Source: Chiloscyllium plagiosum (lineage: Eukaryota). From it: a stretch of DNA of 64,000 nt. Positions 1,160-60,870 of the stretch are shown here, piece by piece. Location of the stretch: contig NC_057753.1 in NCBI RefSeq assembly GCF_004010195.1, positions 3,441,514 to 3,505,513 of the forward strand, in the 5' to 3' direction. The stretch's first letter is position 1; each line of letters opens with the position of its first letter. A program made the position numbers and the translations under genes. The notes under the pieces were generated by a model. It was not told the origin of the DNA and made no database searches. It worked only from the letters and a program-made list of their open reading frames with translations.

Positions 1160-1229
1160 CTGGAAGACCAATATCTGCAAGGACTGGATAATAAATGGCA
1201 AAGACCAAACCTCTTGGTATCTCATGCAT
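1160..1229 (-). CDS. Exon 1 of GPR139-like class A GPCR (gene A); exon 2 lies outside the window to the left
   Basis: 70 nt encoding MHEIPRGLVFAIYYPVLADIGLP+G, ending at a phase-1 donor CCAG|GTAAAA. Same length, phase and IYY..L..IG.P motif as exon 1 of genes B and D. No matching exon 2 seen in 1-1159. Confidence 0.85.
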
Positions 1230-4490: not shown

Positions 4491-4504
4491 CAGGCCTGAC
4501 TAAT

Positions 4505-5420
4505 TTAGAACAGAGAACCTAGAACAGTAATGCACAGTATAGGGTCTTTACCCCTCGACGTTGGGCCGACATTTTTTCCCATTCGAAAATCAAACGAACC
4601 CTTCATTTTGCTATCATCTATGTGCCTATCCAAGAATCGCTTACATGTCGCTTGTGTAATCGAATCTACTATCACTATTGACAGTACCATCCACGCACCC
4701 ACCATTCTCTGTGTAAAGAACATACATCTGACATCTCCACTAATCCTTCCTCTAATCGCATTAAAATTACGCACTCTCGCAATAGCCATTTCTGCCTTGG
4801 GAAATAGATCCCTTTTTATGCGCTCTATATATGCCTCGCATAGCCACGTACACCTCTATCAAGTCACCTCTCAGGCTTCTTCGCTTCAATGAGAAAAGCC
4901 ATTGCTCCTTCAACCTTTCTTCATGAAACATGCTCTCCAGTCCAGGCAATATTCTGGCGATTCACCTTTGCACACTCTCTAAAGCTTGCACGGTCTTTCT
5001 ATAATGAGGCGACAAGAACTGAACACTACATTCCAAGTGCAGTCTAAACAGGGCTTTACAGAGCTGCAGCATAACCTCATGGCTCTGAAATTCTATCCCC
5101 TAGCGAATGAAAGCGAACACACCATATTGCATCTTAGCAAATCTATCAAAGTGTTGAGAAGTTTGAAGGATTTATGTATGAAGAGCACAAGATCCCTCTG
5201 TTCCTACACAGTGCCAAACATTCCGCCAGTAACTCTGTAATATGCATTCAAATTCGAACTTCCAAAAATAAATCACTTCACACTTTTCCAGGTTGACCTC
5301 CATCTCCCCTTATCAACCCAACTATGTATCATGTCAATGTCCCGTTGCAACCTACGACAACCCTCCAGACTGTTCACAACTCCACCAAACTTCGTGTCAT
5401 CAGCAAACTTTCTAAACCCG
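4505..5420 (-). mobile_element. CR1 LINE 3' fragment
   Basis: CR1 ORF2 C-terminal motifs (LFSLKRRSLRGDLIEVY; FFTQRMVGAW) and a TAGAAC-type tail repeat at the left end. Confidence 0.85.
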
Positions 5421-5569
5421 TCACCATGCAAGGTGGCCTTATCCCCTCTCATAGACCTTCAACATTTATGAAAAACTTCTGAATATTTAAACAGAACTTC
5501 ACGTTGGCAGCCTTTCCTAAGTGAAAAATGTTGAAGTTAAGTCTGTCTCATATAATGTTGTCACATCAA

Positions 5570-5730
5570 GTCTTTTACTGGTGTTAACTAAGTGCCAGAG
5601 GTGGTAACTGAACCAACTGCTTCTCATAAGAAACCAGAACCGAAGTTGTATCCCCAATCTTTAAAATTACCTGGTATAAATCATTGGTCGAGGCAAAATA
5701 TTGCACAAATGCACGGTTTTGAATCCAAAA
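5570..5730 (-). mobile_element. Gypsy protease-region fragment
   Basis: VSYEKQLVQLPPL; clear nucleotide similarity to 41660-41770 in the second Gypsy fragment. Confidence 0.55.
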
Positions 5731-5869
5731 CAAATATCGATGCAGGTTTGCTCGCTGAGCTGGAAAGTTCGTTTTTAGGCGTTTCGTCACCATACTAGGT
5801 AACATCTTCAGTGAGTGTCCGAATGAAGCATTGGTGCTGAAGACCATTTTCTATTTAAATTGTTTAGTT

Positions 5870-6600
5870 TCCTTTAGTTGGTGATTTTATTTCCTATGGT
5901 GATGTCATTTCCTGTTATTTTTCTCAGGAGGTGGTAAACGGGATCCAAGTCAATGTGTTTGCTGACAGAGTTCAGGTTGGAATACCACGCTTCTCGGAAT
6001 TCTTGTGTGTCTCTCTGTTTGGTTTGTCTGAAGATGGATGTGTTGTCCCAGTCAAAGTGGTGTCCTTTCTCATCTGTATGTAGGTATATGAGTGAGAGTA
6101 GGTCATGTAATTTTGTGGCTAGTTGAAATTCATGTATCCTGATGGTTAGTTTTCTGCCTGTTTGTCGAATGTATTGCTTGTTATAGTTCTTGTAGATGAT
6201 ATTAATTTTGTTTGTTATCTGTATAGGGTCTTTCAAGTTCATTCAGTGCTATTTTAGTGTGTTGGTGAATTTGTGGCGTCCCATGATGCCAAAGGGTCTG
6301 AGTAGTCTGGCAGTCATTTCCGAGATGTCTTTGATGTGTGAGAGAGTGGCTTGGGTTACTGGACGTGTTTTGTCTGCTTGTTTGGGTTTGTTGCTCAGAA
6401 ATCAGCAGACTGTGTTCATTGGGTCCCCTTTCTTTTTGAATACACGGTAGCGGTGATTTTCCTCTGCTCTGCGTTGTTCCTCTGTGCTGCAGTGTGTGGT
6501 GGTTCGTTGAAATAATTTTCTAATGCAGCTTCGTTTGTGGAGTTTGGAATGATTGCTTCTGCAGATCATTGTTTGGTCCGTATGTGTTGCTATCAGGCAT
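5870..6600 (-). mobile_element. Penelope-like element fragment (GIY-YIG endonuclease region)
   Basis: NIIYK...YIRQTGRKLTIRIHE...HHFDWDNT...EFREAWYS; typical PLE Uri domain, degenerate. Confidence 0.85.
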
Positions 6601-6619
6601 ACCTGAAAATGAGGTATCA

Positions 6620-8530
6620 ACCTGGTGAAGGTACAAAACAGGACTACTTGCATGCCAAACGGCAAAAACAGTAACTGATAGAGCTAAGCAACCTCATAAC
6701 CAGCGGATCAGATCTAAGATCTGCATTCCTTCCGCATCCTTTCGTGAAAGTTGGTGGACAATTCAACTACTCCCTGGCGGAGAAGGCTCCACAAATATCC
6801 CCATCCTAAATGATGGATGGGCCCAGCACATCAGTAGAAAACATAAGAATGCTGATGCATTCCCAACAATCGACAGTCAGAAGTACCCGAGTGGATGATC
6901 CATCTCGGGCTTTTCCAGTGGTTCCCAGTACCACAGATATCGGTTTCCACCAATTCGATTCACTCCACGTGTTATCAAGAAAGGGCTGCAAGCACTGGGT
7001 ACTGCAAAGGCAACGGACCCTGATAACATTCCGGCAATATTACTGAAGACGTGTGCTCCACTACTTGCTGCTCCCTGAGCGAAGCTTTTCCAATACAGTA
7101 ACAACACTGGCATCTACCCGACAATGTGGAAAATTGCCCAGTTATGACTTGTCCACAAAAAGCTGGACAAATCCATTCCAGCCAATTCCTGCAGAATTAG
7201 TCTACTCTCCATCATCAGTAAAGTGACTGAAGGTGTCTTCAACATTGCTATCAAGCAGCACCTGCTCAGTAACGACCTGCTCAGTGACACCCAGTTTGGG
7301 TTTCGCCAGGGTCACTCATCTCCTGATCTCATTACAACCTTGTTTCAAACTTGAGCAAAAGAGTTGAATTCCAGAGGTGAGGAGAGAGTGACAGCCCTTG
7401 ACTTCAAGGCCACATTTGACTGAATATCGCATCAAGGAGTCCTGATAAAACAGGAACAAATGGGTTTCTGTGGCACAGATTCCACTCATTAGAGTCATAC
7501 TTGGCACAAAGGAAGATGGTTGAGGTGGTGGAGCGTCAGTCATCTCGGCTCCAGGACATCTTTGCAGGACACCCTCAGGGTAGTGTCCTCGGCCCAACAC
7601 TCTTCAATTGCGTCATCAATGCCCTTCCCTCTGTCAGAAGTTGGAATGTTCACCGATGATTACAGTGTTCAGTGCCATTCCCCACTACTCAAAGACTGAA
7701 GCAGTTCATGCTCAACTGCAACAAGACCTAGACAATACCCAGGCTTGAGCGAACAAGTGGCAGGTAACATTTACGCCATAAAAATGCCAGACAATGACCT
7801 TCACCAATAACCACCGTCCCTTGAAGCTCAACGGTATTACCATCACTGAATTCCGCACCTTCAACATCCTTGGGGTTACCATTGATCAGAAACTCAACTG
7901 GACTCACCAGATTAATACAGTGGATACAGAAGCAGGTCAGAGACTCGGGATACTGAGGCGAATAACCCACCTCCTAACATCCCACAGTCTAACTACCGTC
8001 TACAAGGCACAAGGCAGGAGTGCGATGGAATACACCCCACTTTCCTGAATTGGTGCATCTCCAACAATACTCATAAAGCGTGACACCATCCAGGGCAAAG
8101 CAACCTTCTTGATTGATACCACATCTGCAAACATTCATTGCCTCCACCACTGGCGCTCAATAGCAACAATGTGTACTATCTACAAGATGCACTGCAGACA
8201 TTTACCAAAAGTCTTTCGACAGAACCTTCCAAACACACGACTACCTCCAGAGAGAAGGACAAGGGTAGCACGTTCTTGGGAACACCACCACCTGCAAGTT
8301 TCCTCTAAGCCATTTATCACACTGACTTGGAAATGTATCAACGTTCCTTCACAGTCGTTGGGTCAGGATCCTGGAATTCCCATCCTCCCAACATTGTGGG
8401 TCAATCCACAGCAAGGGAACTGCAGCGATTCAAGAAGGCAGCTCAACACCATCTTCGCAAGGGCAGATGGGAATGGGCTATCAATGCTGGCCAGCCAGCG
8501 ACGCCCAAGTTTCACAAATGAATAAAAAAA
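6620..8530 (+). mobile_element. Degenerate CR1/L2-group LINE (RT and 3' end)
   Basis: RT C-terminal motifs (ILGVTIDQKLNWTHQIN...AGQRLGILRR; YKAQGRSAMEY) ending ATGAATAAAAAAA. Confidence 0.75.
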
Positions 8531-8539
8531 GCACCGTGT

Positions 8540-9424
8540 TGCTTTTTTATATATGTATACAAAGTGTTGGGATTCTCTTCGTTCTGTTTGCTCATGTCTT
8601 TTCATGGGCCTTTTCAGCCCTTCTAGTTCCTTCTGTACAGTCTTCCCACTTTCCTTACATAACTCAAGGGCCTCGTCAGTTCCCATTCTCCTCGACCTTA
8701 TATATGCTTCCTTTTTTGTTTTTGACCAAGATCATAACATGCCTGGCCATCGAAGGGTCACATAACTTGTCATAAATATTCATTCTCGCAGGAACATGTT
8801 GCTCCTGAAATCATATCAACTGGCAATTGAAATACTCTCGCCTGTCCCACGTGGATTTACCCTCAAACAGATGCCGCCAATCAGCATTCTCCACTTTCGG
8901 CCTATTATCATTTTAGTGCGCCTTCCCCCAGTTTAACACCTTCATCCAAGGACTGCTTAAATCTCACGCTAATATGGTTACACCTCCTGACATTCTCCCC
9001 CGCTGAAACTTCACTCACCAGGCCGGGCTTATTTTCCAAAACCAGGTCCACTACAACCCCTTCCCTGCTTGGACTGTTTACATATTGTGTCAAGAAACTC
9101 CACTGAATATTCCTCGTAAGGTCTGACCCATCCAAGCCCCTCGAACTGAGTGAGTCCCAGTCAATATAGGGGAAGTAAAAATCATCCACACAACAAACAT
9201 GCTGTTTTTGCGGCTTTCCAAAATCTATCTACGTAGTCTCTCCTCTATTTTCCACTGACTGTTGGGCGGCCCAGAATTATGATTCACTTTTCCTGTTGCT
9301 GAGTTCTACCCGTTTTGTCTCGCTACACGAGTCCTCTGATATATCCTCCCTCAGTGCAGTCTTAAGGTTATCCATTACAAGTAATGCAACTTCTCCACTG
9401 CTTTCAGAAGTCTTCATTCACATT
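8540..9424 (-). mobile_element. CR1 fragment (endonuclease region), paralogous to 54760-55660
   Basis: DFYFPYIDWDS...FLTQYVNSPSREGVVVDLVL; colinear with the CR1 downstream of gene D. Confidence 0.8.
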
Positions 9425-10247
9425 TGTTATGAAGTGAAAGCCTGTAATGTGCCTTTAAAAGAGAGTGGCTGATGTTCTGAACTGACAAAGAACAATCACC
9501 TGTGTGCATGACTAAATGGCAGTCCCAAAGTGCAGTAGAAAATTGAAAATATATAACATTTGGCTATGAAATTGATATCCGAGTTTTGCTTGCTGATTTA
9601 ACCAGTCTTTTTAAATTGTGCCCAGAATATGTAAACCCAATCGAGTTTGAATTTATTGTTTTGCCACTATCGAACCAATGAGACGATCCAATGTTGTGCG
9701 GGTATAAAACGTGCTCTCTTGGAAAATTGCTTAGAGAGCAACTGCCATCGAATCAGAAATGCACGGGGTGAAGGCCAACCAACATCTTGCTCTCCAAGAA
9801 ATTCGGAAATACTCTCTACCTAAGTTACATCTTCATATGAAACCCTGTATCAAAGGTACCATTTTATATGAAGCATGCTCGCAATAAAAAAGTAAGAAGA
9901 TGATCCAGAGAGACCTTCAGCTGGAAGAAGAAAGACACAGAAGACAACAGCAGATGTGCGGATTTGAAAGTAAGCTGATTTACTTTTAATAGTGTCATAT
10001 TTGAACAGCAAATTCATATAGAGTTGGAGGCAGATAAGAAACAGTTAAGATAAAGGGAGTCTTAGATTTGTGAACGGTAGTCGTTCAATGTTCAGTTTTA
10101 GAGATAAAGATAAATTAATGTTATTTTCTTTAAATAGTGGAATCTGGAAGTCCTCTGTGACTCATATTTTAACACATTATGAGGTGAGGCGAACTCTTCT
10201 CGGTGATTGGTTTAATTAAGGGAGAGATTCACCTCAGTGTCGTAACA
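9425..10247 (+). mobile_element. Solo LTR
   Basis: TGTTATGA...TCGTAACA termini (8-bp imperfect inverted repeat); internal TATAAAA (about 9704) and AATAAA (about 9883); absent from the paralogous site near 55660. Confidence 0.75.
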
Positions 10248-12631
10248 AATCTGAAACAACTGTCGACTCATCCGGATTGGACATGAAGCCAGTGACCTGA
10301 ATAAATTTTATCCTGAACGTTGCTGTAAAAATGTTGATCTAAGCCGACGTTTGTATTCAACTGTAATTGCCACACTGAATACAATTGTCCTACAGCAAAT
10401 TGACAGTCTCAGAATAGTATGGAATCATGTTGCCTGTGAGCCGTGATCATATGGATGATCAATGCTGAAAGCTTGCCAAGGTTGGCTGCAGTTGCCTTTC
10501 AGCCCAGTACATCGCTTAAGAAATGTACGATGTGCCATATAGTAATCATGCCTGATATCGCAAACGAGATCTGCAAACCAGATCATTAAAAGTTAACCAG
10601 ACAAAGCAATAAGCAATTGGGGAATAATGAAAAAGTACGTGACTACAGTCTTTTTTTGCAAGACGATGGCCTTACAGTGACAACAGACTGTTTTGCAACA
10701 ATACATGGAATTATATTTGATTGCCAAGCACAATGAAATGGCTGGAGCTTGATTAACCTTCAGTCTGGATTTGTGACTTCTGCCATGGAACTTAATGTCG
10801 AGCTGCTCACCGTCATAACGGGATCCCCAAATAACAATACGATATGAGATTTATTTGTTTGAATATATCTAATTACTTTTAGCGAAGCACTTAGGAAAGC
10901 TAATGAGTAATGAAAATCGAGCAATTGAAATCATTATGTTTGCATTACACCAGAGCACATTTTGATCAAACACTCTTTGAAGTCGAAGAGGTACATTTGG
11001 CGCTGTGAACAAGGTCGAAGAAACACCTTCAAGAAGAAGACAAATGTTTGGCTTGAGGAAGTATTCGGTATCCCTATACGGTTTCAGGATTGTAATGTAT
11101 TGGTTAAATGAGTTAGAGCGCTGCAATTTTGGGATACGGATTTGGAGCTTATTCCAAAAGGACTATGTAAAGGTTTGTCAGGAGGGAGCGGCCGAAAAGC
11201 AGACCAAAAGTGTCTCCCAAATGCAGTGCATTCTGTTGATCAGCGTCCACGGTGCGACTCGATCCCAGAGAGGTACCAATATCCGGGAGGGGTTGGGGAG
11301 GAATTTGCTAATGCTCTTTGCGAGGGTTTAACCTAATTCAGCAGAGTGATGGGATTCTAAAGTGTAGTTCCAGTGTTCAGGATTTTACTGGCAAGGAGGA
11401 AGGTGGTTTTAATTGTGTCTACTTCACTGCCAGGAGCATCCGGAATAAGGTGGTTGAACTTGCAGCAAGGGGATGGTATCTGGGAGTTCGATGTTGTGGC
11501 CATTTCGGAGACATGAATAGAGAAGGGACAGGATTGATTGCTGCAAGTTCTGGAATTTTGATGTTTCAGTAAGAACAGAGAAGTTGGCAGAAAAGCGGGG
11601 AGATGTGGCATTGTTAATCAAGGACAGTATTACTGTAGAAGAAACGGCATTTTAGGACTTGTCGACTGAGATAATATGGGTTGAGGTGGGTAACAGGAAA
11701 GAAGAGGTCACCATGTTGGGAGTTTGCTACATGCCTCCGACTACTTCCAGAGATGGAGAGAAAAGGATAGTGGACATGATCATCGATGGGAGAGACATTA
11801 ACAGATTAGTTTTTGTGGTGGACTTTAACTTTCCAAATATTGATTGGAATGGCTATAGTTCTAGTACTTTAATGGGTCAGTTTTCGTCCAATGTGTCTCA
11901 CAAACCTTACTGAGTTCTTTGAAATGGTGAACAGACAGGTGGATAAGGGTAAAGCGGTTGATGTCGTGTACATGGATTTCAGTAAGCCGTTTCCTTGATT
12001 GGTCCTAATCGTCCCCCACTCATTCTTTTATTTCTGATATACCTACAGAAAGCTTTCCTGTTTTCCTTGGTCCGATCTGCCAACGATTTTGCATGTCCCC
12101 TGCTGGCTCTTCTTTTCCCTCTTCTTTGGTCTTTCCTGGCTAACTTGTAACTCTCAAGAGCCTGAACTGAGCCTTCACTTCTCATCCTAACATCAGCCTT
12201 CTTCTCCCTCTTGACAAGTGATTCAATTTCTTTTGTGAATCACGGCTCCCTCTCTACCACTTCCTCCATGTCTCACAGGTGCATTATTATCAAGGAAACA
12301 CAGTAGCTGGTCCTTGAATAAGCTCCGCATTCAATTGTGCCAAGCCTCTGCAGTTCCCTGCCCCATCCTATGCATCGTATATCTTGCATAATCGCACCAT
12401 GATTGCCTTTACCCCAGAAATAACTCCTGCCCTGCGTTATATACCTATCCCTTTCCATAGATAAAATAAACATGACCGAACTGTGGTCACTATCAACAAA
12501 GTGCTCACCTTCCTCCAAATCTCACACCTGGCCAGGTTCATTACTCAGTTCCAAATTCAACATGGCCTCGACCCTTGTTGGCTTGTCTACGTAGTGTGTC
12601 AGGAAACCATTCTGCACACATTGGAAAAGTT

Positions 12632-12956
12632 TGTGCGAAGATTTGTAGCTCGGGTGCTCGTTGTTGTGGTTCTGTTCGCCGAGCTGGAAGATTTTGTTGC
12701 AAACGTTTCGTCCCCTGGCTAGGCGACATCATCAGTGCTTGGAAGCCTCCTGCAAAGCGCTTCTTTGATGTTTCCTCCGGTGTTTATAGTGGTCTGTCCC
12801 TGCCGCTTCCGGTTGTCAGTTTCAGCTGTCCGCTGTAGTGGTTGGTATATTGGCTCCAGGTCGATGTGTTTGTTGATGGAGTTTGTGGATGAATGCCATG
12901 CCTCTAGGAATTCCCTGGCTGTTCTCTGTCTGGCTTGCCCTATGATAGTAGTGTGA
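12632..12956 (-). mobile_element. Young Penelope 3' fragment (pLTR)
   Basis: TTIIGQARQRTAREFLEAWHSSTNSINKHIDLEPIYQPL; flanked by a possible target duplication ACACATTGGAAA. Confidence 0.85.
12699..12738 (-). ncRNA. Minimal type I hammerhead ribozyme motif in Penelope pLTR
   Basis: GCA-CTGATGA-T-GTC G CCT[AGCC]AGG G GAC-GAAAC-GTT-TGC: conserved core, helix II, 3-bp helix I, loopless helix III. Confidence 0.6.
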
Positions 12957-15900
12957 TAGAACCACAACAACACATTGGAAAGTTATGTGTGGAGTCAGAG
13001 GAGATATGGGAAGTGCTAAATGAATATTTTTCCTAAGTACTCTCACTAGAAAAATACGTTGTAGTCGAGCAGAATACTGAGATATAGGCTACTAGATGAG
13101 AAGGTATTGTGCTTCACAAAGAGGAGATGTTAGCAATTCTAGAAAGTATGAAAATAGTTAAGAACCTGGGCCGGATGGGAGTTATCCGAAAATTCTCTGA
13201 CATGCCATGGAGGAGATGGCAGAGCCTTTGGCTGTGAGTTTTATGTCCTCATTGTTGACACGAAAAGTGCAAGAAGAGTGGAGGATAGAAAGTTTTCCCC
13301 TTGTTCAAGAAGGGCAGTAAAGACGACATTGATAATTATAGACCAGTGAGCCTTTCTTTGGTTGTGGGTAACGTGTTGGGAAATGTTAGAAGAGATAGGA
13401 TTTATATTATTGTACACAGGAGTACGTTGATTAGGAATAGTCAGCACGGTTTTATGATGGGTAGGCCACGCCTCACAAACCTAATAGAGTTTTTAGAGAT
13501 GGTGACCAATCTGCTGGATGAGGGTAAAGCGGTTGATGTGGTGTATATGGGTTTCAGTAAGGCGTTTGATCAGATTTCCTGCGATAGGCTATTGCACAAA
13601 ATACGGAGGCATACTATTGAGGGTGATTTAGCACTTCGATCAGACATTGGTTAGCTGAAAGAAACTATTGTTTGAAGAGAAATATTCATCGTGAATTTCA
13701 GTTACTAGTCGTATACCGCAAGGACCTGTTTTGGGTCAACTGCTGTTTGTCACTTGTATAAATTAACTAGATGAGGGCGCAGACGGATCAGGTCGAAAAT
13801 TTGTGGATGGCACTAGGGTCGGTGGAGTTGTATATAGTGCTGAAGAATGTTGCAGGTTGTAGAGGAACATAGATGCGTTGCAGAGCTGGACGGAGAGATG
13901 GCAAGTGTAGGTTAATGTGGAAAAGTGTGAGGTGATTCACTTTGGATAGTGCAAAAGGAATAAAGACAGCCGGGCTAATGGGAAGATTCTTGGTGGTGTG
14001 GATGAGCAGAGGGATCTCGGTGTCCAGCTACATAGATCTCTGAACGTTGCTACCCACGCTGATATTGTAATTAAGAAGGCTTACAGTGTGTTAACTCTTA
14101 TTTGTGGAAGGAGTGAGATTCGGAACCATGAGGTCACGTTGCAGCTGTGCAAATTTCTGATGCAGCTGCATTTGGAGTATTGTGTACCGTTCTGGTCACT
14201 GCATTAGAGAAAGAATGCTGAAATTTTGGAAAGGGTTCAGAGGAGATTTGCTAGGATGTTGCCTGGTATGAGGAACGGCTGAGGGATTTGAGGCTGTTTT
14301 CATTCGAGAGAAGAAGGTTGAGAGGTGACTTAATTGAGTCATATAAGATAATCAGAAGTTAGAACGGGTAGTCAGTGGGAGCCTTTTTCCGAGGATGGTC
14401 ATGGCTATCACGTGATGTCATAACTTTGAAATGAGGGGCAATAGAGAGAGGATAGATGCCAGATATAGTTTCTTTACTCAGAGAGTAGTAGGGGAGCGGA
14501 AAGCTTTGGCGGCAACAGTAGTAGACTCGCCAACCTTAACGGCATTTGATTGGTCATTGGACAAACAGATGTATGAAAAAAGAATAGTGTAGATAGGCTT
14601 CGGAGTGGTTCTGCAGGTTGGTGCAACATCGAGAGTCGAAGGGTCTGTCCTGAGCAGTAATGTTCTATCTTCCATGTTCTATTAACTGGGTCACTGGATT
14701 AATCGGCTATCGCCTCCCCTTAAGACACTACCTCCCCAGTTACCCATGTACATCATTATCGTTGAGGAGTTCTTGCAGCTTCGAATGTTGAAATTTTCTT
14801 TTGAAAAATAGTCATTCATCGGATGAGGTCGTCACTGGCTCGGCTACTATTTAGTGCTCATCCAAAATTTTGGAGAAGCCATTGAAGAGTTACTTACCGG
14901 CCAGACTAGTTGAGGAGGACTGCTTCTTTTTCTAAAGTGAACAGCATGAAGTTTGGACATTCGAGGACGGGTTCGTTGTCCTCAGACTCTTAATTCCACG
15001 CAAAAAACGTTGAATTCTAATTACACCATCCATCTGCCGTAGATACTTTAACATTATTTAGAATCCAGGACCTCAGAACTTTACGTGGGTCTCTGGATTA
15101 ATAGGCTAGCAACAATACGATGAGGCAATCACAGTCCCTGTTTACACCATGAGTCGGAAAGTTGAAAGTGAGAATGAAGTCCTGTCCAAACAGGGAGTCC
15201 AAGTCGAGACTAGTCCGATCTGACAGTATGCTGTCTCAGAGGGTTGGATGACCGTGTGAATTTATTCTTGTACATTCCACAAGTGAATGACTATGGCTGC
15301 GTGTGAACGCACAGAGGGTCACACATCTTATTCCACCTCCTATGTGAATCCGCTGGATCCCCCTCACATCATGTGTAACAATAGCGGGACAATGTTATGT
15401 ATCATTCTACAGCATGAAACCTGTAGCCTTCTTTCACAAGTCGTGCCATTGCATGGTCCTACAGCCCTGCCACATGCTCCCACTCTGCAGGAGTGCTCAA
15501 AACCCTGTTGCACAACGTTATGCAGTGACGTATTTATTGATAGCATTGATTAGTGACATATTTTACTCTGCTAAATTTATGATTGTTTCTGATGGATCTT
15601 GGTTAAGCACTGAACTTAAATCGAAATGTCAGTTAGCTGCCATTGCATGTGTAGTTAAATACAGAAGGTTTGAATATATCACTCAATGTTTTTAATGGCA
15701 GATTTCTAAGGCAATTGATAATCATCAAATCTGAAATAGTATTTCAGGACTGCATTTGAATATGGCATGCTGATTTTCACATCTCTAAACATCGCAATTC
15801 TCACGATTCAATTATGAAATTGTCACTGTGAGTAGATTGGAAGTAGGGCATTAGTGTATTGACATCACAATTATCAATTTCTCATCACTACGAGTCAGTT

Positions 15901-16424
15901 CTGATCAAGTAATCTGGTGTGTTCTTATACCAAATCGACGTCAATGTCCAGTTCCAAGACAGATTGCCTGACAATAGCGCTTAAATTTATAACTCACTGT
16001 TATAGAACCTGTATGATTAAGTGCTGTCCAAGTAGGTGAGCAGGTCAGATTGGAGGCCTTGGGTGTGAGCAAACACCAGTGGAGTGAAAGATGCCGCTGT
16101 GTTACATTGTCAGCCTGGTTTACCTTCGATAGCATAAACACCCGTGTGCACAGTAAGCGACATTGACAAATAAGACTTTGCAAAAGGCAAACAAAGGGCT
16201 GCGACTGAACTCACAAATAATTGCCACATGGCGGTGGTGAGGTTTTTTTTGGCTCTGGCGATAGCACCAGGAGAATTTCTGACTAATTAGACAGCCCTGC
16301 AAGGAGAAAGAGGTGCAGCTGAGCAATCGTTTGGTTTCACCTGGCTGCACAACTGAATGAGGATATATGACTGGACGCTTTCAGCGAATGTGCCTGCAGT
16401 GGACAGGGCACTATTTATAAAGCA

Positions 16425-17335
16425 TCAACACTTCAGAAGTTTAACAAGCAATCTCAGTGGATATTTCAAACAATTCTTTAACTCGTCTCTGAATTTATTC
16501 TGGGTTCCCGCATAAATAAAAGGATTTATACAGGAACTCAGAAACTGAAGCATATACCCGGTTTCCTCCAGGATGAAGGACGACTTGCTATAGTCAGAAA
16601 CTGAGTAATAAGTAACTTTTGCAATTCGGACATAGAGCACGGTTACAAAATATACCGAATAAAGCAGAAGAAAACTACCTGAAATGCAAAAAAGTAAAAT
16701 AATGGACTTTTTCCGTTTCTCCACCTCTGAGTCACTCGGATTCTCTCCATTGCTCTGGGTGCGAAGTCTCCTGCGGGCTCGATTGGCCGCTAAAATATGC
16801 CTGACAGTCAGAGCATTGAGCAGTAAAATCAGAATGAATGGGAGGCAGGGGACGAGAATGGATCGAATCAAATCGTATGCGGCCCAGGCCTGTGAGGTGT
16901 TAGATACTAATTTTGGAACGCAGAACCAGGGAACGCCATTAATTATGTACAGTGGTTCAAATACAAAATAGAAAAATGCATTTTTAAAACAGCTCAGCGT
17001 GCAGACTCCCCCTATAACCCACTTCGCTGTAACTTCTGTACAGTATTTTAGTTTCAGCTTCTGGCAACAAATGGCAACAAATCGATCAAAGGTGAAAGCG
17101 ACCGTTAACCAGGCAGAACTATCTATTACTGAATAAATAAGGACAACGCGGAGACTGCATATCGGTGTGATGAATAAGAAACTGAATGGAAGATAAATGC
17201 CAGCAGTCCGGTTTATAATCACATTAACTATAATGACCAAGAGATCTGCTAACGCCATGGATACCACGTAGGAAATGATACATCCAGAGAGACCACATCG
17301 TCTTCGTTGTAAGATTATGATCACTGCCAAATTTG
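16425..17335 (-). CDS. Exon 2 of GPR139-like class A GPCR (gene B)
   Basis: Acceptor TTCTCTCTGTTACAG|CA; 911 nt open frame covering TM1b-TM7 with MALADL, C3.25 (TPIC), FTFDRFVAIC, WFC and INPFIY. With exon 1 gives 981 nt = 326 aa. Confidence 0.95.
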
Positions 17336-18775
17336 CTGTAACAGAGAGAATGAAGATGGAATAGTGAGAATTATGTCGGAGAGAGCAAGAGCAATGAAAT
17401 CATTAGTCCAAATTTCAATAAAATTATACTATTTTACAGAATTGTTTGAGAAAGTCAGACGTGTGTGGTCAGTTTTTGCATTGAAAAGTACGCTTCATAC
17501 CAGTTCAAGAGTTTCAATTAAAATTGGAACAATAATCTTAATTGAAAGCAAGTTATGTGAGTGACAAGAATCATCAATAATAGACGTAATAACGGAGAGA
17601 AAAATGATGTAAAAACACTTCAGAACATGCACGGGAAAAGATTGGAAGAATACTATGTATGCACTGAGTGGCATAAAAGACAAAACAACAACTAAACACG
17701 TAAAGTCTGTCCAGAGAATTCATTGCATTTTGTTGACTTAAACAATGCCCAAAAGTTATGAACTTTTGTAAAGCAGTTCTCTGTTGAAACAACCTGCAGA
17801 TAATATCAATAAAAACATCCAGAGGCATAGTGAGGTGGATGAAGTGAGGATTTCTTCGGCTTTGCACAGGAAACATTGCTAAAGATGTAACAGTATTTAT
17901 CATTTATGTAGCGGGAAACGTCAATGCTAACCCGAAGAACTGGACATTTGCAAATGCCGAGATCTCATTCGGAGAACATCTCCGACAACACCACAGCCCT
18001 CAATGTTCTAGTTTACTGTAAGGAGAATTGAGCACTTCTGTGGAGTGCTAGATATTATCTTTGTGATGCTCACTCACAGGAGTCTTCCCAATAGCACTAT
18101 AGCACAACACTTATATTGAGATGATAATGGTAAAGGTACAAATTCCATCGTTATAGGTATCTGTTTAAAAATGATTTAAACAAATGTTGTCACTTGACGA
18201 ACAATATATTGTATGTAAATACATTTTACGAAACTATGACGATGAGCTGGAATACATTATTTCATGGAGACAATGTTCAAAACTGAATTGAAAGTTATAC
18301 AGGTTTACGGGGAGAATGTGTGAGAACAGCATTAAATGAATTCCTTATCTGCAGACCGGACACACACAACACTGATCAAATGCCGTCCTCAGCACTGAGC
18401 TATTTCTGAACTCCCATAAAGAGAAGGTACAGCTCAGCTATTAAGGGAACGTACACTTTATTGTGGAAACATATCTTAAAGAAACTCAACTAAGAAGGAA
18501 GATAAATCATATTCGCAAAAGTGAGAACATAGACGATCAATAATGACCATGTAAACAAGGAAATTAATTATTCCATTAATGCAGAGAATATTCTTAATGG
18601 CAGGTTGTAAAAATGCGACTAAAGATAAGAAAACCTCCCTATTAAAAGAAAACAGAGTTCTTTAACTTGTGAATGAAATATCCGCAAAGTGAAAATGGGC
18701 TAGTAGTGATAAACAAAGAGGGGTGATTCAACAAATCTATGAATCGTGTAATAATAAATGAGTACAAATCTTTAC

Positions 18776-18845
18776 CTGGTATCCCGATAGCTGCAAGCAA
18801 ATTATAATAAATGGAAAACAACAGACCTTTTGGTGATATGTGCAT
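18776..18845 (-). CDS. Exon 1 of gene B
   Basis: MHISPKGLLFSIYYNLLAAIGIP+G with donor CCAG|GTAAAG. Phase matches exon 2 (G|CA AAT = A-N). Intron 17336-18775. Confidence 0.9.
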
Positions 18846-18894
18846 TTCTATCAGAGGTTTTAGGCACATTCAGCGTTATGTTGTATTTTCCTCA

Positions 18895-18929
18895 TTTATA
18901 CATGAGTCAAGCTCAAGGGATTTAATTAG
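18895..18929 (-). promoter_or_regulatory. Gene B proximal promoter: TATA, AP-1-like site, homeodomain/EBF-like composite
   Basis: TATAAA 18900-18895; TGACTCA 18909-18903; CTAATTAAATCCCTTGAG 18929-18912. Confidence 0.7.
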
Positions 18930-19129
18930 ATAGTTGAAACTGGTACAGTAATCAACATAGTTGTTGGAAAAAAACAAATAAATGCAACTGCAGTTGGGTG
19001 TGCTTCGATGGAATGGAACTCGAATTGGAAATGTCCAGGGAGTGCAAAACGCTTTAACCCAGTTTCTTTTTTAATGTTCATGGCCAGTGTTTTCATCTAT
19101 TCTATATATTAAAACCATCTATACTTCTT

Positions 19130-19330: not shown

Positions 19331-22300
19331 GCACCCTCGCGTTGTTCATCCGATAGTTTCCAGATCATATGATTTTGGTACTGCTCCGACAGTCTCCTGT
19401 GTTGTGTGTTCTGAAGCATTATTCATTATGATCTTATTGGCCGGAAGAGTAGGTTCCAAGGATTGGATGGCCGACTCCTACTTCCAATTGATGTATTCAT
19501 GTATATGCTCCTCTTCAAGGTATTTACAACGTCTCAGGTGTAAGCCCAGCCATGACATATTTTCATGGGGCTTCAGACTGAAAGAAATGAGCCTTTATTC
19601 TCTGTCTTTCAATGTAACCCCTAATGAGTCTTTGTGAAAGACGTGCTCAGGTTTAAGAAGCAAATCGTGTTCTAAACAGGGTAAGAGATCGAGCTTAATT
19701 TAGTTAAAGGGGGAGCGAAAGAACGATTGATTGATTGATTGATTAATTGTTATATGTATCTTGCTGCAAACTTGACTGGTTGGAGTAAGCAAAGTAGAAG
19801 GAAGGCAGTGGGTAGAATTCAGAAATCTAGGCAGCAAATCATGAGTAGAAACCAGTTGGTCCTACTTTACAGTTCGAGAGCTCGTTCCAGTCCTGACCTC
19901 AATCTTGGTTCAGCATGAATCACAATGCACACGCAGCCACCTTCTTACCCAGATCAGACTTTATACTTTGCACATCAATATACATGCTTTCTACTCAACC
20001 TCCAAGATGTTACGACCTGCCTATGGAGCAAGTTGCATTTGAGCTCTGGTCAAATCTGCTTAGTAGTGGAGACACTACCACTGCACGACAAACGTTTTAC
20101 TGCAGTGTATCCAGCATTGTAAAGAACTGGCAGCAAATTTTAGGGCTTTGATACAGTTTGGCGCCTTAGTTCGAGAAAATGCAATTAACAATATCCACAT
20201 TCAACATGTAAAAATGAGTGGTCACGAGAGCAGCCTAAGAGATTGGCGAATGTAAGGAGAAAAGTTTGAGATAGATTAGTCGATGATATTTCACGCAGGT
20301 CCAGAAAAATGCTTCACATGGGGAGAACAATATAGGAAAAGGATACTTTGCATAAATGGAAAGAAGTTCATCCACATAAAATTCCTGACAGGCATAACTC
20401 CAGTGAATCATTTGATGCTATTGTAAAATGAAACGTGTGAAACGTGTGAAACAAATCATCTATGTCGTGTTTCCCCGTTTGAAATGGTGGTAAGCTCTGC
20501 CACTTCTGAGTCAAAACATTATAGTTTCAAGCGCTATTCTCGGACAGGTGTGTCATGGCAATGCTTGTAGTTGCTTTTCAGTTAGGTTGCTAAACTGAAG
20601 CAAAATCGAAACCCAATGCATATAGAGACTCTGCACCAATTTAATGGAGAGCTGTTGTTCATATTACAATACAATGAACAACATGCGCATGGTTCAAAGA
20701 TTAAGCATTACAACAATGAGCACCTCGAGGAAATGTAGATTCATTTAGTATGTGATGGTTAACTCAACAAACTGCAGCAATACACAGCATAGCGAAGTTT
20801 ATATCATGGCAGGGAATGACAATACTCCCACAGTAAGAACATCCATAACAGCAAGCAAATTAATTTATAGCATGTCACCGCATTGTCAATGCCTGTTACT
20901 GTAACAACACAAATAACGAACAAGAAAAGTTTATTGTGGTGCAGAGTCTCTCACAGTGGCACACTACCCATAACTGTGGCAGTGTCCATATCTCTGGGAC
21001 GGCTGGCTCGGATTCACATTACCCAATGCTCCAGGGGTTTGTACCTCTGAACAGATTTATTCGTTAAATGAACGTGGAGCTTAACTTTCATATGACTTTG
21101 CATGAAAATATATGTACACTGTTCGTATCAATAACAGACCAGAATTACGTTGAAAGCATGAGTCGGTAACAAGCAGTGCAAAAATACCAAATGTAGAGAG
21201 GACGTCGTTCTGGAGTTTGCATGTTAGTTGATCAAAAGGAGAATGATTTATAACTTGAATGTTAACATACTGTTTCTCTCAAGACATTTTAATACCACTA
21301 TGAGAAATATGAAATAGACAAATATAATGAAAGCTCATTATGTTCATGAAGAATAAATGATTAAATGGAGAGTTGAAATGGATAGTTGGAAAAAAGTTTG
21401 ATTTTTGGGGGAGGGACTATATCATATTTGTTAATGGTATAAAGAAAGGTTTGTCTTAGTAAATAGACAAGTGATCTACTTAAATGTGGAAATGACATCA
21501 CTACCACTTAGAAAAATATGACAAAATGGGAGGTATGCAAATCCTTACATAACTAGCAACAGTTACCATAACTATACGATGTTGCAAGAACAGGATAGTA
21601 AATTGCAAACAATAAGCGTTTTGGTGGTGACTGCAGTTCTGGTCAAAGTTCTACACATCTCCTTCATCATGTTCAAAGGTGGTCATATTTACTCTTCATG
21701 TCTTTTTCCATACAGAAAATTAGTTGGTTTTGCCTGTTCATGACACTAATTGAAAGGGTAAAAAATTAACACAAACTTGTGAAATTATGGCTGGTGCTGC
21801 CAGTGTGTTTTATCAAATGGATATTTTGGAACTGCATTTTTCCCAACATTGAAACTCACAGAGACGACAAAAAAGCTAGTCAGGCTTTTCCTTTGTTCAT
21901 CCAAAACAAACAAAAACAACGTTCAATGAAAAATTGGAGATATTTCGTGAAATTCAACTTTGGAACCGCAGAATTATTACTTTTAGTTCCTTGACGCTGA
22001 ATTCAATGATCATTGCACAAGTTACAACTAAGCATGAACATGTTGATTAAATAAGTTGGTAAATTCTAAGTTTAACTGACACGATAAGTGCTTTCACACG
22101 GTCTTCTGTGTTTTCGTTGTGGAGAAATGCAGTTCAGAAATGTTACAATTAGTCCTCAAATGCCATATTTAGCTTAATTTTGGAATAAATTAGTGCAGTC
22201 CAGATTAATTATATATTTTGTGTACGGGTTCTCATGATGCTGGTGGCCTTGATAATGGAAAGGTTCACTCCTGCATGGTTGCACCCAATTCCATTTCAGC

Positions 22301-38471: not shown

Positions 38472-39377
38472 TTATTGACATTCGAATATTTTAATGAATA
38501 AGTTCAAAGCAAATCTCACTCCATTCTTCAATTCATGTCTAATTTTGCTCTGTGTCATAGCATATATAAATGCGTTAACGCAATAACTGAAACATATATC
38601 TGTTTTTTTTTCAAATCAAACGTGAAATTATGCAAAATGGATCCCGAAGAATAAGTAATATTCACAGCTCTTACACAGAGAATATTTGTAAAACATAACA
38701 GATATAATTGAATGAAACTGCCCCAGATGGCAAAGAGTAAAATAATGGACTTTTCCAGCTTCTTCATCTCTGGGTCACACTGAATCTCTCCATTGTTCTG
38801 AAGGTTGAGTCTCCTATGGGCTGTATTGGCCAAGGCAATATATCTCACGGTCAGCACGTTTAGTTGTAAAATTAGAATGAAAGAGAGACACTGACTTAAA
38901 ATTTAACAGATCCAGTCATATGCAGCCCAAGCAGGTGATGTATGACATTTATCCCTTATGCGACACAGCCAGGGCACATTGTTAATACATACCTCGTTTC
39001 AAATTCAAAATATGTGAAAATGCTTTTCGTACAGCACAAAGTAGGCATTATTCCTATCACCCATGCTGCCACCTTCTTGGTGCAATATTTTACTTTAAGG
39101 TTCTGGCAGGATATAGCCGCAAGTTGATTAAAGGTAAAAGCAACAGTTAACCAGGCGGAGTTGTTAATAATTGCCATTTTTAATGCAGCACGGAAACTAT
39201 ACACTCGTGTGATAGAAAGGAAGTTGGATTGGAAATAACTCCCAGTAATCCTATTTAAAATCACAGCTGTGACCATGACCAAGTGATCTGTCACTGCAAT
39301 TGACACCAAGAAGCTGGTGATGCATCCAAACAGACCACAGGCTCTTCGAGACAGGATTTCAATCATTGCTCGATTAG
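38472..39377 (-). pseudogene. GPR139-like GPCR pseudogene (gene C, exon 2 only)
   Basis: SRRACGLFGCI, SAWLTVAFTF, LKVKYCT, LTVRYIAL and KSIILLFAI in different frames. DRF changed to NQL; acceptor reads TTACAA| instead of AG; frameshifts near 38990 and in TM7. Confidence 0.9.
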
Positions 39378-39606
39378 TTGTAAGTTGTAAATAATGAGTT
39401 TCAATCAGAACATTTGTGTTTCTGATCACCATCAAGTTTCCCATTTAACAGGATTTTTTTTAAAAAGAGAGAAGAATTGAGAAGAAAGTCATAATTGGGA
39501 CATTATTCCTTCCATAAGGAACAATTGATTTTTGAATTAAACATTGACACATAGATTAACCAAATTAAGGATGCAACAAGGAAAAATATTTGGAAATCTT
39601 TTTTTT

Positions 39607-41329: not shown

Positions 41330-42260
41330 ACTTTTGCATATTATTTTGGAAACAAACTGGCCAGATGCAAATCACAAACTTCACGAAATTCATTCGTGAT
41401 TCCTTCACTTTCCATCTTCCTCATTTCTGCGTCAACGTTTGCATTGAAGGCAAGCAGCATTGAGTGGCCAACACAGATTAGTAGAATTTCTTCCCGGTCA
41501 ACATGCCAGGTGGTTACTTTAATGCTCTTTAGACCTTCCTGAACGCCACCTGGGCATTTAATTGGAACTTCACTCTGGCAGCAGTTTGCTAATTGAAAAA
41601 TGCAGAGCAAATTAAGTTAAATCTCTCTCATTCAAGTTCGCCATATCCAGCTTTTTACTACAATCAGTGGTACCTGACCCAACCGCTTCTCATAAGAAAC
41701 CTGAACTGAAGTCATATCCTTAATTTGTAAGCTTCCCTGATAAAAGTTCTCGGTCTAGCCAAGATCTTGCACAACTGTAAGGATTGGAGTCCAGAGCAAA
41801 TATTGTTAGAGACTTGTTCTGCTGGCACTGAAGCAGTCACACCAGTTTCAATCTCCATTGGAATTGGGTGACTTTTCAACCAGATGTCTACTTTGATAGG
41901 TTGCAAATTGGATGTTGCTAACCAATTTAGCTGTTCCAAACGAGATGTCCGTGGACTTTCCAGGATGTGCATTCTCCTGGATACGGGGGTAGGAGTTCTC
42001 TTAGCCAATGTTGGACTAGTGGTACGCTTTTGCTGTCGTGAGTCTACATACAGGAAACAACTCGATTTGCTTGCTGGCCCAGAAACTGAAGAAAATTTTA
42101 ACACCTTGGCCGAGGCTTGGCTTTGTTTTGGATTCTTCTGTGGGCTGACCCAGAGTTCCTCTGTTCAGGATATATTCTCAGTGAGTCAATGCAATCGCCT
42201 TCTCTCAAGTGGTCTTCCCGAAGTTCAGGCAGAGAGGCGAGGATATAGAGTTACATCGGG
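41330..42260 (-). mobile_element. Gypsy gag-protease-RT fragment (same family as 2245-4490)
   Basis: PIKVDIWL..HPIPMEIETGVTASV (degenerate aspartic protease); 41400-41455 matches 4425-4480. Confidence 0.7.
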
Positions 42261-42805
42261 ATAGCCCACATATCACATGCTTAAATTGCAGAATTTTCCA
42301 ATGATAAAGCCAGTTGTAGTGCTTGTTTGACATCCAGTTGGGCTTTTGCCAATAGTTGCTTTTGCGTCATTACATCATTAATCCCATATACCAAATGGTC
42401 TCTCAGCCCTTTGGTCTGTCGAGTCTTAATCTCAAATCATCCCACTTTCCAGCATTATGCCTCAGCCTTAACTGTTATGAGGTAGTGAGGTTACCAACCT
42501 CAAATACAATTCCAAGTGATGTATTCCATACCTCCATCTGGGTGAGAAAAAATAATCTTCAATTCCCGGTCTCGACATCTGAATTCGTGCTAGGAAGTGT
42601 GCTCTTTGTTTGTAACCTTCAACTGAATGGAACAGCAACTTTCTACCAAAACTGTCCATATCCCTTCAAAATCATATACGACATATGAAGAACCCCCCCC
42701 CCCCTCGACTTTGTCGACTCCAAAGAATATTGTCCGAGCTTATTCAATGCGTCTTCATAGCTAAAGCAACCCATCTCAATAAGTGCTCATATCATACCTA
42801 CGATT

Positions 42806-43095
42806 CAGTGGCTCAGTGGTTAGCACTGCTGCCTTCAATGTACTAGGTCTGATTCTACCCTGGGGATGATACCTCGTGTCTGCATGGGCTTCCTCCATCC
42901 GTCCAGAAATTGCAGTTTAGTTGGTTTGGCCATGCTAATTTGTCGGCAGTTTGCAGGGTACTTGGGTTTGCTACATCATCTTTGTGGTTACAGGGATAAC
43001 GTGGGGTGGTGGGTTTGATGGGAGATTCTTTGGACGGTTGGTGTGGACACAATGGGCCGAACGGCCTATTTCCACAATGTAGGATTTCTATGATC
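42806..43095 (+). mobile_element. Degenerate tRNA-derived SINE
   Basis: CAGTGGCTCAGTGGTTAGCACTGCTGCC head; ends GATTTCTATGAT. Confidence 0.75.
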
Positions 43096-43419
43096 TCTAA
43101 CGTAACATATGCTGATTTTATGGAAATGTGGTCATGTGTTTTCTTAATACATTATGAGGTGACTCCATCGTGATCGCCATTTATTTTCACTTTACCTGAC
43201 TATACACTTTGCATCTTATCTTGCTCACTTACCTTGGGATTTCCTGGGTAGAGCGGATATTAGAAAATTGAGTTAATCAACTGCACTTCGAAAACCGACA
43301 CTCCATTTTGGCTTGCATATTTGTATATCACATCTTAAATAAGTTTAAACTACAGAGCAGTTCCTTTCCAATAAACGGCTCAATGCGAGAGATTCCAGAC
43401 CAGTCAACTTTGTCTTTAG

Positions 43420-58293: not shown

Positions 58294-58429
58294 TGCTATG
58301 AATTTCTGGCCAAATTAGACAGCCTTATACGGAGAAAGAGGTTGAGCTGAATAACAGTTTGGCGGCACCTAGCGGCGTATGTCAATGAGTATAAACGATT
58401 GGAAGTTTTCAGCTAATGCGCCTGCAGTG

Positions 58430-59340
58430 TCAACACCTTAAAAGTTTTAATAGCAATCTCCACGGATGTTTTAACCCGTTCTTTAACACGTCCCTGAATT
58501 TATTCTGGGTCCCCGCATAAATAAATGGGTTGATGCAGGAACTCAGAAACTGAAGCATATACCCAGTTTCCTCCAGGATAAAGGATGACTTACTATAGTC
58601 AGAAGCTGAGTAATAAGCAACTTTCGCAATTCGGACATAGAGCACAGTTACAAAAAATACCGAATACAGCAGAAGAAAACTGCCTGAAATGCCAAAGAGT
58701 AAGATAATAGATTTTTTCCTTTTCTCCATCTCTGGATCAGTCTGATCCTCTCCATTGCTCAGGATTCGGAGTCTCCTGCGGGCTCGATTGGCCGCTAAAA
58801 TGTGCCTTACTGTCAGAGCATTGAGCAGTAAAATCAGAACGAATGGGAGGCAGGGGGCAAGAATGGAACGAATCAAATCATATGCAGCCCAAGCCTGTGA
58901 GGTACTAAATGCAAATATTGTAACACAGAACCAGGGTACATTATTAATTGTATACAACGGTTCAAATATAAAATATAAAAATGCATTTTTAAAACAACTC
59001 AGCGTGCAGACGCCCCCTATAACCCACTTCGCTGTTAGTTCTGTACAGTATTTTACTTTTAGCTTCTGGCAACAAATGGCCACAAAGCGATCAAAGGTGA
59101 AAGCGACCGTTAACCAGGCAGAAATATCTATTACTGAATAAATAAGGACAACACGGAGACTGCATATTGGTGTGATGAATAAGAAACTAAATGGGAGATA
59201 AATGCCAGCAGTCCGGTTTATAATCACGTTAACAATAATGACCAAGAGATCTGCTAGCGCCATGGATACCACGTAGGAAATGATGCACCCAGAAATACCA
59301 CATCTTCTTCGGTATAAGATTGCGATCACGGCCAAATTTG
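58430..59340 (-). CDS. Exon 2 of GPR139-like class A GPCR (gene D)
   Basis: Acceptor TTCTCTCTGTTATAG|CA; 911 nt open frame with DRF and NPFIY; colinear with gene B without indels. Confidence 0.95.
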
Positions 59341-60715: not shown

Positions 60716-60785
60716 CTGGTATCCCGATAGCCGCAAGCAAATTATAGTAAATGGAAAACAACAGACCTTTTGGTGATATGTGCAT
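60716..60785 (-). CDS. Exon 1 of gene D
   Basis: Encodes the same 23 aa as gene B exon 1 (2 synonymous differences); donor CCAG|GTAAAA; intron 59341-60715. Confidence 0.9.
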
Positions 60786-60835
60786 TTCTATCAGAAGTTT
60801 TAAGCACATTCAGCGTTATGTTGTATTTTTCCACG

Positions 60836-60870
60836 TTTATAGATGAGTCAGACTCAGGGGATTTAATTAG
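60836..60870 (-). promoter_or_regulatory. Gene D proximal promoter: TATA, AP-1-like site, homeodomain/EBF-like composite
   Basis: TATAAA 60841-60836; TGACTCA 60850-60844; CTAATTAAATCCCCTGAG 60870-60853. Confidence 0.7.

What the first reader, a model, noticed from the sequence alone, without database searches (positions are those of the whole stretch)
16899..16916. Six consecutive ECL2 replacements between otherwise close paralogs
After WFCV, gene B reads PKLVSN (CCA AAA TTA GTA TCT AAC) and gene D (58904-58921) reads TIFAFS (ACA ATA TTT GCA TTT AGT). That is 7 nucleotide changes altering all 6 residues, against 35 aa differences in 326 overall (hand count). B also has an N-T-S glycosylation sequon here that D lacks. 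Residues just after the ECL2 cysteine cap the ligand pocket in class A GPCRs. Inference: diversifying selection on ligand specificity.
Basis: partly seen in the sequence, partly recalled or inferred. Interest (0 to 1): 0.7.

Follow-up and report, generated by a model that had tools for sequence, protein, structure and literature searches.

The report
Loosened pocket lid in shark receptors
Two working shark receptor genes really do differ at six residues in a row in a loop predicted to cover the ligand pocket, but the differences are separate single-letter changes in a small subfamily that has lost a tyrosine kept by almost all its relatives, so this is likely a locally loosened loop rather than proven selection for new ligands.

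Summary
Observation confirmed: 7 nt and 6 aa differ at residues 164-169, against 35 of 326 overall. A run of six is beyond chance (P 0.0003 uniform; 0.002-0.003 under family site rates). Both genes are intact and under purifying selection (tip dN/dS 0.27 and 0.14). They belong to a shark 'GPR139-like' class A family with at least 1,008 motif copies in this genome; the scan has noted this family before on other DNA. No conversion donor or recombination signal was found. B and D are not sisters, and the six changes are shared piecemeal with other paralogs. All 8 of 112 intact paralogs lacking the conserved aromatic residue 169 form one clade that includes B and D. In that clade the patch evolves at about the neutral rate (1.2, CI 0.7-1.6; 1.8, CI 1.0-2.8 in the five closest genes). 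Site 164 shows a weak episodic signal independent of B and D (p 0.005, uncorrected). B's N-T-S sequon is probably too close to TM5 to be used. Verdict: a real subfamily-specific rate shift; positive selection is possible but not shown.

The parts
16899..16916 (-). Gene B ECL2 patch, residues 164-169 (PKLVSN); predicted end of beta-strand 2, a turn, and a short helix just before TM5
   Evidence: matched by contigs of two other runs
58904..58921 (-). Gene D ECL2 patch, residues 164-169 (TIFAFS); shared, bar one base, only with pseudogene L097
16425..17335 (-). Gene B exon 2 (codon 24 to stop), 7tm_1 receptor, intact
18776..18845 (-). Gene B exon 1 (start codon, 23 codons plus 1 base), GT donor
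58430..59340 (-). Gene D exon 2, intact
60716..60785 (-). Gene D exon 1
16920..16922 (-). Cys162 of B (ECL2 cysteine), invariant in 112 of 112 intact paralogs; presumed partner of invariant Cys83 in TM3
   Evidence: the disulfide is inferred from class A knowledge
16893..16901 (-). N169-T170-S171 sequon of B; position 169 is Tyr in 100 and Phe in 4 of 112 paralogs; 3 residues before the predicted TM5 helix start
   Evidence: distance rule from PMC4783361 passages
16872..16886 (-). Trp174 to Asp178, top of TM5; both invariant in 80 of 80 genes and identical in B and D; likely a shared pocket wall
   Evidence: generic numbering is my inference

Best explanation
The six-residue patch is the sum of separate single-base replacements in two intact shark receptor paralogs whose subfamily has lost Tyr169 of the family's conserved ECL2 motif, and it likely reflects a local release of constraint on the predicted pocket lid rather than one selective event. 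Most of the family keeps C162-x-x-K-x-x-(F/Y)-Y-T-S-x-x-W174. The eight genes without aromatic 169 form one clade (shown). In it, position 163 is frozen while 167 and 169 are freed (shown as rate shifts), and 164 and 166 are already near-neutral family-wide (shown). B adds S168 and N169; D, with its pseudogene sister, adds T164 and I165, and D alone F166 (read from states shared among living genes). B and D are therefore the two most distant ends of a loosened segment. Inferred: the aromatic pair 168-169 normally pins the short pre-TM5 helix; losing Tyr169 let the lid drift while the pocket wall (R86, D95, W174, D178) stayed fixed. Any effect would be on ligand access or affinity rather than ligand class. 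Some positive selection at 164 and 167 is not excluded.
For: Family motif census in 112 genome paralogs and 122 database proteins. Non-aromatic 169 occurs in 8 of 112, all one clade. Foreground/background dN/dS: 169 0.04 to 2.75 (LRT 14.8), 167 0.55 to 2.75 (8.7), 163 1.23 to 0.01 (9.3); patch 1.23, CI 0.72-1.61, LRT against 1 only 0.36. Shift of the B/D clade against 26 other young clades: LRT 12.0, p 0.0005. The patch ranks 1 of 290 windows for among-clade heterogeneity, and 6 of 290 without the B/D clade. Intermediate states exist in L002, L003, L005, L006, L012, L050 and L097. B and D tips have dN/dS 0.27 and 0.14 versus 1.04 and 0.83 for pseudogenes L097 and L012. Family-wide patch dN/dS 0.45; 0.50 (0.40-0.64) in young clades without B/D.
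Against: Point estimates exceed 1 in the five-gene clade (1.55-1.76; LRT against 1 of 2.8-4.1 depending on the synonymous scale) and in two unrelated young clades (1.76, 1.52). An average at or above 1 over six codons of a folded receptor is hard to get without some favoured changes. A MEME-type test flags 164 (p 0.005) and 168 (p 0.009) without the B/D clade, with 16-17 sites at p<0.05 against 1 of 309 in a null simulation. The clade was defined by residue 169 and the window was picked after seeing B versus D, so the rate-shift values are optimistic. The causal role of Tyr169 is inferred only. Models gave no coordinates, and pLDDT around the loop is 64-77.
Confidence: 0.55

Rival explanations
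1. Episodic diversifying selection on ligand specificity within this subfamily: after duplication, replacements at the lid (164, 165, 167-169) were favoured because they tune each copy to different ligands.
For: Top six-codon window in the clade, dN/dS 1.55-1.76. 12 or so replacements against 1-2 silent changes among the five genes (hand count). Site 164 has M8 posterior 0.92 in 27 young clades, dN/dS 1.48, and MEME-type p 0.002-0.005. Other episodic hits include predicted pocket positions 87, 91 and 182. K165I in D removes a residue kept in 107 of 112 genes.
Against: No interval excludes 1 once the clade's own synonymous rate is used (0.98-2.75; 0.90-2.67). Without B and D: 1.23 (0.48-2.67). 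Clade-mixture test for dN/dS>1: LRT 3.65 with and 1.75 without the B/D clade, below ICL3 windows. Site 164 LRT is 2.9 and 1.6. The strongest pervasive signals are on intracellular positions 129, 216, 223 and 318. MEME-type p values would not survive correction for 309 sites, and the null assumed a correct tree and single-base changes.
Confidence: 0.3
2. Chance clustering under the family's ordinary site rates, noticed after the fact.
For: Many pairs and windows are scanned; 7 of 67 close pairs have runs of 5; three of the six sites are fast everywhere.
Against: P(run >=6) is 0.002-0.003 under family rates, with 1.1-1.4 differences expected in the patch. Every pair of the five-gene clade differs at 2-6 of the 6 sites, and the patch stays fast without B and D.
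Confidence: 0.06
3. A short gene-conversion tract or one multi-base mutation placed a foreign patch in B or D.
For: Tandem cluster of many related copies.
Against: D's 26-base patch pattern matches only D and L097 genome-wide at up to 2 mismatches. The nearest 18-base patches among 111 intact genes differ by 3 (B) and 5 (D). There is no excess of silent differences in the patch (0 of 6 codons), and a PHI-type test gave p 0.81. Intermediate states exist.
Confidence: 0.04
4. The driver is gain of an N-glycan on B's loop, or decay of one gene.
For: N169-T-S arises in 2 of 112 genes (L001, L009); B and D have no ECL3 sequon, whereas 47 of 80 paralogs do.
Against: N169 lies 3 residues before the modelled TM5 helix and about 10 before its hydrophobic core, inside the 14-residue minimum stated in PMC4783361. 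Both genes are intact and under purifying selection.
Confidence: 0.05

Closest known systems
RefSeq/UniRef models named 'probable G-protein coupled receptor 139' in sharks and rays (best: whale shark P0001, 86% identical)
   Same: Same 325-326 aa family; 2,013 hits among 3,945 candidates, and of the best 120 listed all 119 that carry a name are from sharks. P0001 also has Ser at 169 (PKLAFS), so the tyrosine loss predates that species split.
   Different: These are automatic names only; I found no functional or evolutionary study of them.
Human GPR139 (PDB 7vug, 9m42)
   Same: Best solved-structure sequence match (E 4e-10); class A fold; ECL2 residue W170 dips into the pocket in 7VUG (bioRxiv 10.1101/2025.04.18.647407, passages).
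   Different: Distant. In the alignment GPR139 lacks both cysteines (TM3 and ECL2) that are invariant here and has a shorter ECL2. GPR139 is single-copy in mammals (recalled); this family has 1,000+ copies.
Peptide-binding class A receptors with an ECL2 beta-hairpin (CCK1R, NTSR1, GALR2, NMUR2, TRHR)
   Same: Top Foldseek matches, TM-score about 0.6; predicted hairpin 149-155/158-164 with the cysteine on strand 2.
   Different: 14-21% identity and E-values all alike, so no ligand can be inferred.
Birth-and-death chemoreceptor families (OR, TAAR, V1R, T2R) with variable ECL2; type I functional divergence after duplication
   Same: Clusters with pseudogenes and variable ECL2; ECL2 is implicated in ligand selection in ORs (PMC12294341 passages). 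Site-specific rate shift after duplication is a known pattern (recalled).
   Different: Not homologous at family level by any search run here. [quoted passage not shown] Olfactory expression of this family is not shown.

Membership tests
Class A (rhodopsin-type) GPCR | 7tm_1 profile above the curated cut-off | tested here: met
   70-71 bits versus 30.5
Class A (rhodopsin-type) GPCR | Seven helices, DRY-like and NPxxY motifs, TM3 and ECL2 cysteines | tested here: met
   Model of B exon 2, pLDDT 77; DRF and NPFIY in sequence; C83 and C162 invariant
GPR139 ortholog | High identity to human GPR139 and absence of the TM3-ECL2 cysteine pair | tested here: not met
   E 4e-10 only; cysteines present here, absent in the aligned GPR139
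GPR139 ortholog | Activation by L-Trp/L-Phe (recalled) | not testable with these tools
   needs a cell assay
Sites under pervasive diversifying selection | dN/dS significantly above 1 across the family | tested here: not met
   Site values 1.07, 0.10, 1.26, 0.60, 0.23, 0.12; best M8 posterior 0.77; patch 0.45
Sites under episodic diversifying selection | dN/dS above 1 on a subset of branches or clades | tested here: inconclusive
   MEME-type p 0.005 (164) and 0.009 (168) uncorrected; clade intervals include 1
Type I functional divergence (rate shift) | Site rates differ between a subfamily and the rest | tested here: met
   LRT 12.0 for the patch; 14.8, 8.7 and 9.3 at 169, 167 and 163; window and clade chosen after the fact
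Gene-conversion tract | A donor paralog, or a local jump in silent divergence | tested here: not met
   only 112 intact genes compared base by base, the genome by one pattern
Olfactory/chemosensory receptor repertoire | Expression in olfactory sensory neurons | not testable with these tools
   no RNA holder listed; no read assignable to D in the sampled part of two RNA runs

The most novel reading that the evidence does not exclude
This Tyr169-less subfamily is an ongoing adaptive radiation of the ligand-pocket lid inside an unstudied shark receptor family of 1,000+ copies, possibly a hidden smell repertoire. B and D, 89% identical yet different at six consecutive lid residues, would then detect different ligands and be a ready-made swap pair for deorphanising the family.
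Probability: 0.25. Interest if true: 0.6.

Novelty: new member of a known kind. Interest (0 to 1): 0.3.

Why it matters
Variable ECL2 segments among duplicated class A receptors are a known pattern, so the patch alone is modest. Its value is practical: it marks the one subfamily, among 112 genes sampled, that abandoned the family's conserved ECL2 tyrosine, and it gives a minimal natural contrast (B versus D) for testing whether the loop sets ligand preference. The larger point of interest, a huge undescribed shark GPCR family, is confirmed here in size, but it was already noted repeatedly by this scan and is not this finding.

Tried and rejected
Conversion donor search: none found. Whole-gene relaxation of B or D: rejected. 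Assembly error in B: rejected. For D the check was inconclusive: no cover of the patch in run X2 (84% of the run read; a hole proves nothing) and weak cover in X7. Expression: no RNA holder listed. Ten reads of single-cell run X22 (2% read) fit only the conserved TM3 motif and run on unlike D; X23 (6% read) gave none; neither is evidence either way. M7/M8, M8a/M8 and M1a/M2a were significant on 80 genes, but the hits are intracellular or in the poorly aligned C-tail, so they do not support the ECL2 claim; the alignment was trimmed at residue 320 afterwards. Fold searches and the ESM Atlas gave only generic class A or same-family matches. A strict palindromic promoter pattern had 0 matches in the window. 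Exact branch placement of each change was not computed; it rests on states shared among living genes. Literature: 10 searches found no paper on this family or patch. The library lacks most subscription papers, and I read no supplements.

Full report
1. Observation. B has exon 1 at 18845-18776 and exon 2 at 17335-16425; D has 60785-60716 and 59340-58430. Both are on the minus strand with GT-AG introns and 326 aa each; 35 residues and 104 of 981 bases differ, dS 0.31, dN 0.059. The patch is residues 164-169, starting two after Cys162. A run of six has P 0.000345 under random placement and 0.002-0.003 under family-derived site rates; 7 base changes in 18 is unremarkable (P 0.31). Contigs from two other runs match B across 16851-17019 with no difference. 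The same check for D was inconclusive.

2. What the genes are. Both match Pfam 7tm_1. A protein search gave 2,013 hits among 3,945 candidates; of the best 120 listed, the 119 with a name are shark proteins, mostly auto-named 'probable G-protein coupled receptor 139'. The genome search scored 140 of 7,745 candidates, and an exact TM3 motif pattern has 1,008 matches versus 0 for the reversed control (genes and pseudogenes together). Human GPR139 is the nearest solved structure but distant, and it lacks the two cysteines invariant here. AlphaFold models of the whale shark relative (pLDDT 65) and of B exon 2 (pLDDT 77) agree on an ECL2 beta-hairpin (149-155, 158-164), a short helix (166-169/170) and TM5 from 172. 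Generic numbering (164 = 45.52, 174 = 5.35, 178 = 5.39) is my inference from motifs, and the lid role of 45.52 is recalled. The models returned no coordinates, so side-chain orientation was not checked.

3. Data set. I fetched 130 of the 140 scored hits plus loci. 80 of the first 90 loci and 112 distinct genes from 161 loci, many of them duplicates, passed as intact exon-2 frames. Those with internal stops, frameshifts, odd length or no AG acceptor were dropped from the family analyses. The sample is biased towards B's relatives. Codon models are my own implementation (GY94-type, F3x4, fixed relative branch lengths); it reproduced IQ-TREE's one-ratio likelihood.

4. How the six differences arose. 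B and D are not sisters: B groups with L002 and pseudogene L012, D with pseudogene L097. Living states form a ladder: PKLVSN (B), PKLVFT (L002), PKLVFS (L006), PKLAFS (L012, and whale shark P0001), IKLIVS (L003), LKLTFS (L005), TILAFS (L097), TIFAFS (D). So S168 and N169 are private to B among these genes, T164 and I165 are shared by D and L097, and F166 is private to D. No donor was found: D's pattern occurs only in D and L097, silent differences are not raised in the patch, and a PHI-type test gives p 0.81. Neither gene is decaying: tip dN/dS is 0.27 (B) and 0.14 (D), against 1.04 and 0.83 for two pseudogenes.

5. Selection, family-wide. On 80 genes the six sites have dN/dS 1.07, 0.10, 1.26, 0.60, 0.23 and 0.12, none significantly above 1. 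M8 beats M8a (p 0.0001), but its confident sites are 129, 216, 318, 326 and tail columns, not ECL2. The patch as a whole is 0.45 (0.38-0.52) against 0.28 for the gene. In 27 young clades (82 genes) it is 0.58, or 0.50 (0.40-0.64) without the B/D clade; site 164 is 1.48 (LRT 2.9, M8 posterior 0.92), or 1.35 (LRT 1.6) without it. In the other direction, a MEME-type test flags 164 (p 0.002; 0.005 without the B/D clade), 168 (0.006; 0.009) and 167 (0.018; 0.076), with 17 of 309 sites at p<0.05 versus 1 of 309 in a null simulation. These p values are uncorrected, and the null assumed a correct tree and single-base steps.

6. Selection, subfamily. In the five intact close genes the patch is the top six-codon window, dN/dS 1.55-1.76, with intervals 0.90-2.67 or 0.98-2.75. 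With a family-wide synonymous scale the LRT against 1 reaches 4.05. Without B and D it is 1.23 (0.48-2.67). Across the 27 young clades the patch ranges from 0 to 1.76; it is the most heterogeneous of 290 windows (6th without B/D), but a test for a class above 1 gives LRT 3.65 and 1.75. The family motif is C-x-x-K-x-x-(F/Y)-Y-T-S-x-x-W: K165 in 107, F/Y168 in 102 and Y169 in 100 of 112 genes, with similar counts in 122 database proteins. All eight genes with a non-aromatic 169 (L001-L005, L008, L009, L013) form one clade. Within it 169 and 167 are released (0.04 to 2.75; 0.55 to 2.75) and 163 is frozen (1.23 to 0.01), and the patch averages 1.23 (0.72-1.61). Both clade and window were chosen after seeing the data.

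7. Mechanism. Shown: stepwise point changes, intact constrained genes, a clade-specific rate shift that coincides with loss of Tyr169, and a fixed core (R86 in 75, D95 in 78, W174 and D178 in 80 of 80). Inferred: the aromatic pair anchors the short pre-TM5 helix, its loss let the lid drift, and the effect would be on access or affinity. I put 0.55 on release of constraint, 0.30 on episodic selection for ligand specificity, and 0.15 on chance, conversion, glycosylation or decay together. B's sequon is 3 residues before the modelled TM5 helix, inside the 14-residue minimum given in PMC4783361 (passages), so it is probably unused. Two other B/D differences sit at predicted pocket positions outside the patch, V185A and Y252F, so the patch need not be the main determinant.

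8. Known and new. Ten literature searches found nothing on this family or patch. I read keyword passages of PMC12294341, PMC11979771, PMC10116579, PMC4783361 and bioRxiv 10.1101/2025.04.18.647407, other papers only as search listings, and no supplements; supplements of shark genome papers could list the family. PMC11979771 has no occurrence of 'gpr' in its main text. The scan's own notes had no look-alike by sequence but describe the family many times in this genome; they are unchecked leads, and I confirmed only its size, its distance from GPR139 and, in three genes, a shared promoter-like motif. The patch is a new case of a known pattern, rate shift in ECL2 after duplication. Interest 0.3.

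Noticed in passing
genome G000: 1,008 exact matches to one TM3 motif pattern of this receptor family (control 0): a family far larger than published shark smell-receptor counts; already noted by earlier scan reports.
   Followed up: partly
window about 18895-18929 (B), the matching stretch upstream of D near 60835-60870, and upstream of the exon at 1229: Conserved TAATTA followed by TCCC..GAG-like and TATAAA elements 50-85 bases upstream of the start codon in three paralogs; resembles homeodomain plus O/E sites of olfactory receptor promoters (label recalled, untested).
   Followed up: partly
window 16760 (residue 216, ICL3): Site 216 has the strongest pervasive dN/dS signal in the family (1.7-1.8), differs between B and D, and shows a first-position variant in one contig of run X1. 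ICL3 219-226 outranks ECL2 in the clade-mixture test.
   Followed up: partly
window 38478-39402 (minus): Frameshifted paralog (gene C) with an internal stop, about 50% identical to B.
   Followed up: no
window 1161-1229 and 21583-21627 (minus): Exon 1 of a further paralog whose exon 2 lies left of the window, and an orphan exon-1-like fragment.
   Followed up: no
L007 (G000:C19738): Unplaced contig one base different from B (residue 310); the same variant appears in run X2, so likely an allele.
   Followed up: yes
L047, L053, L064, L066, L085: A young clade with identical bases over residues 162-171 in all five genes despite whole-gene dN/dS 0.54: the opposite pattern to B/D, either strong constraint or local homogenisation.
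   Followed up: no
window residues 185 and 252 of B/D (about 16851-16853 and 16650-16652): V185A and Y252F fall at predicted pocket-facing positions 5.46 and 6.51.
   Followed up: no
window 4504-16234 versus 41556-44262 and 54753-58204; 16273-19095 versus 58300-61034: Old segmental similarity (68-78%) flanking B and D, marking the duplication unit or shared repeats.
   Followed up: no
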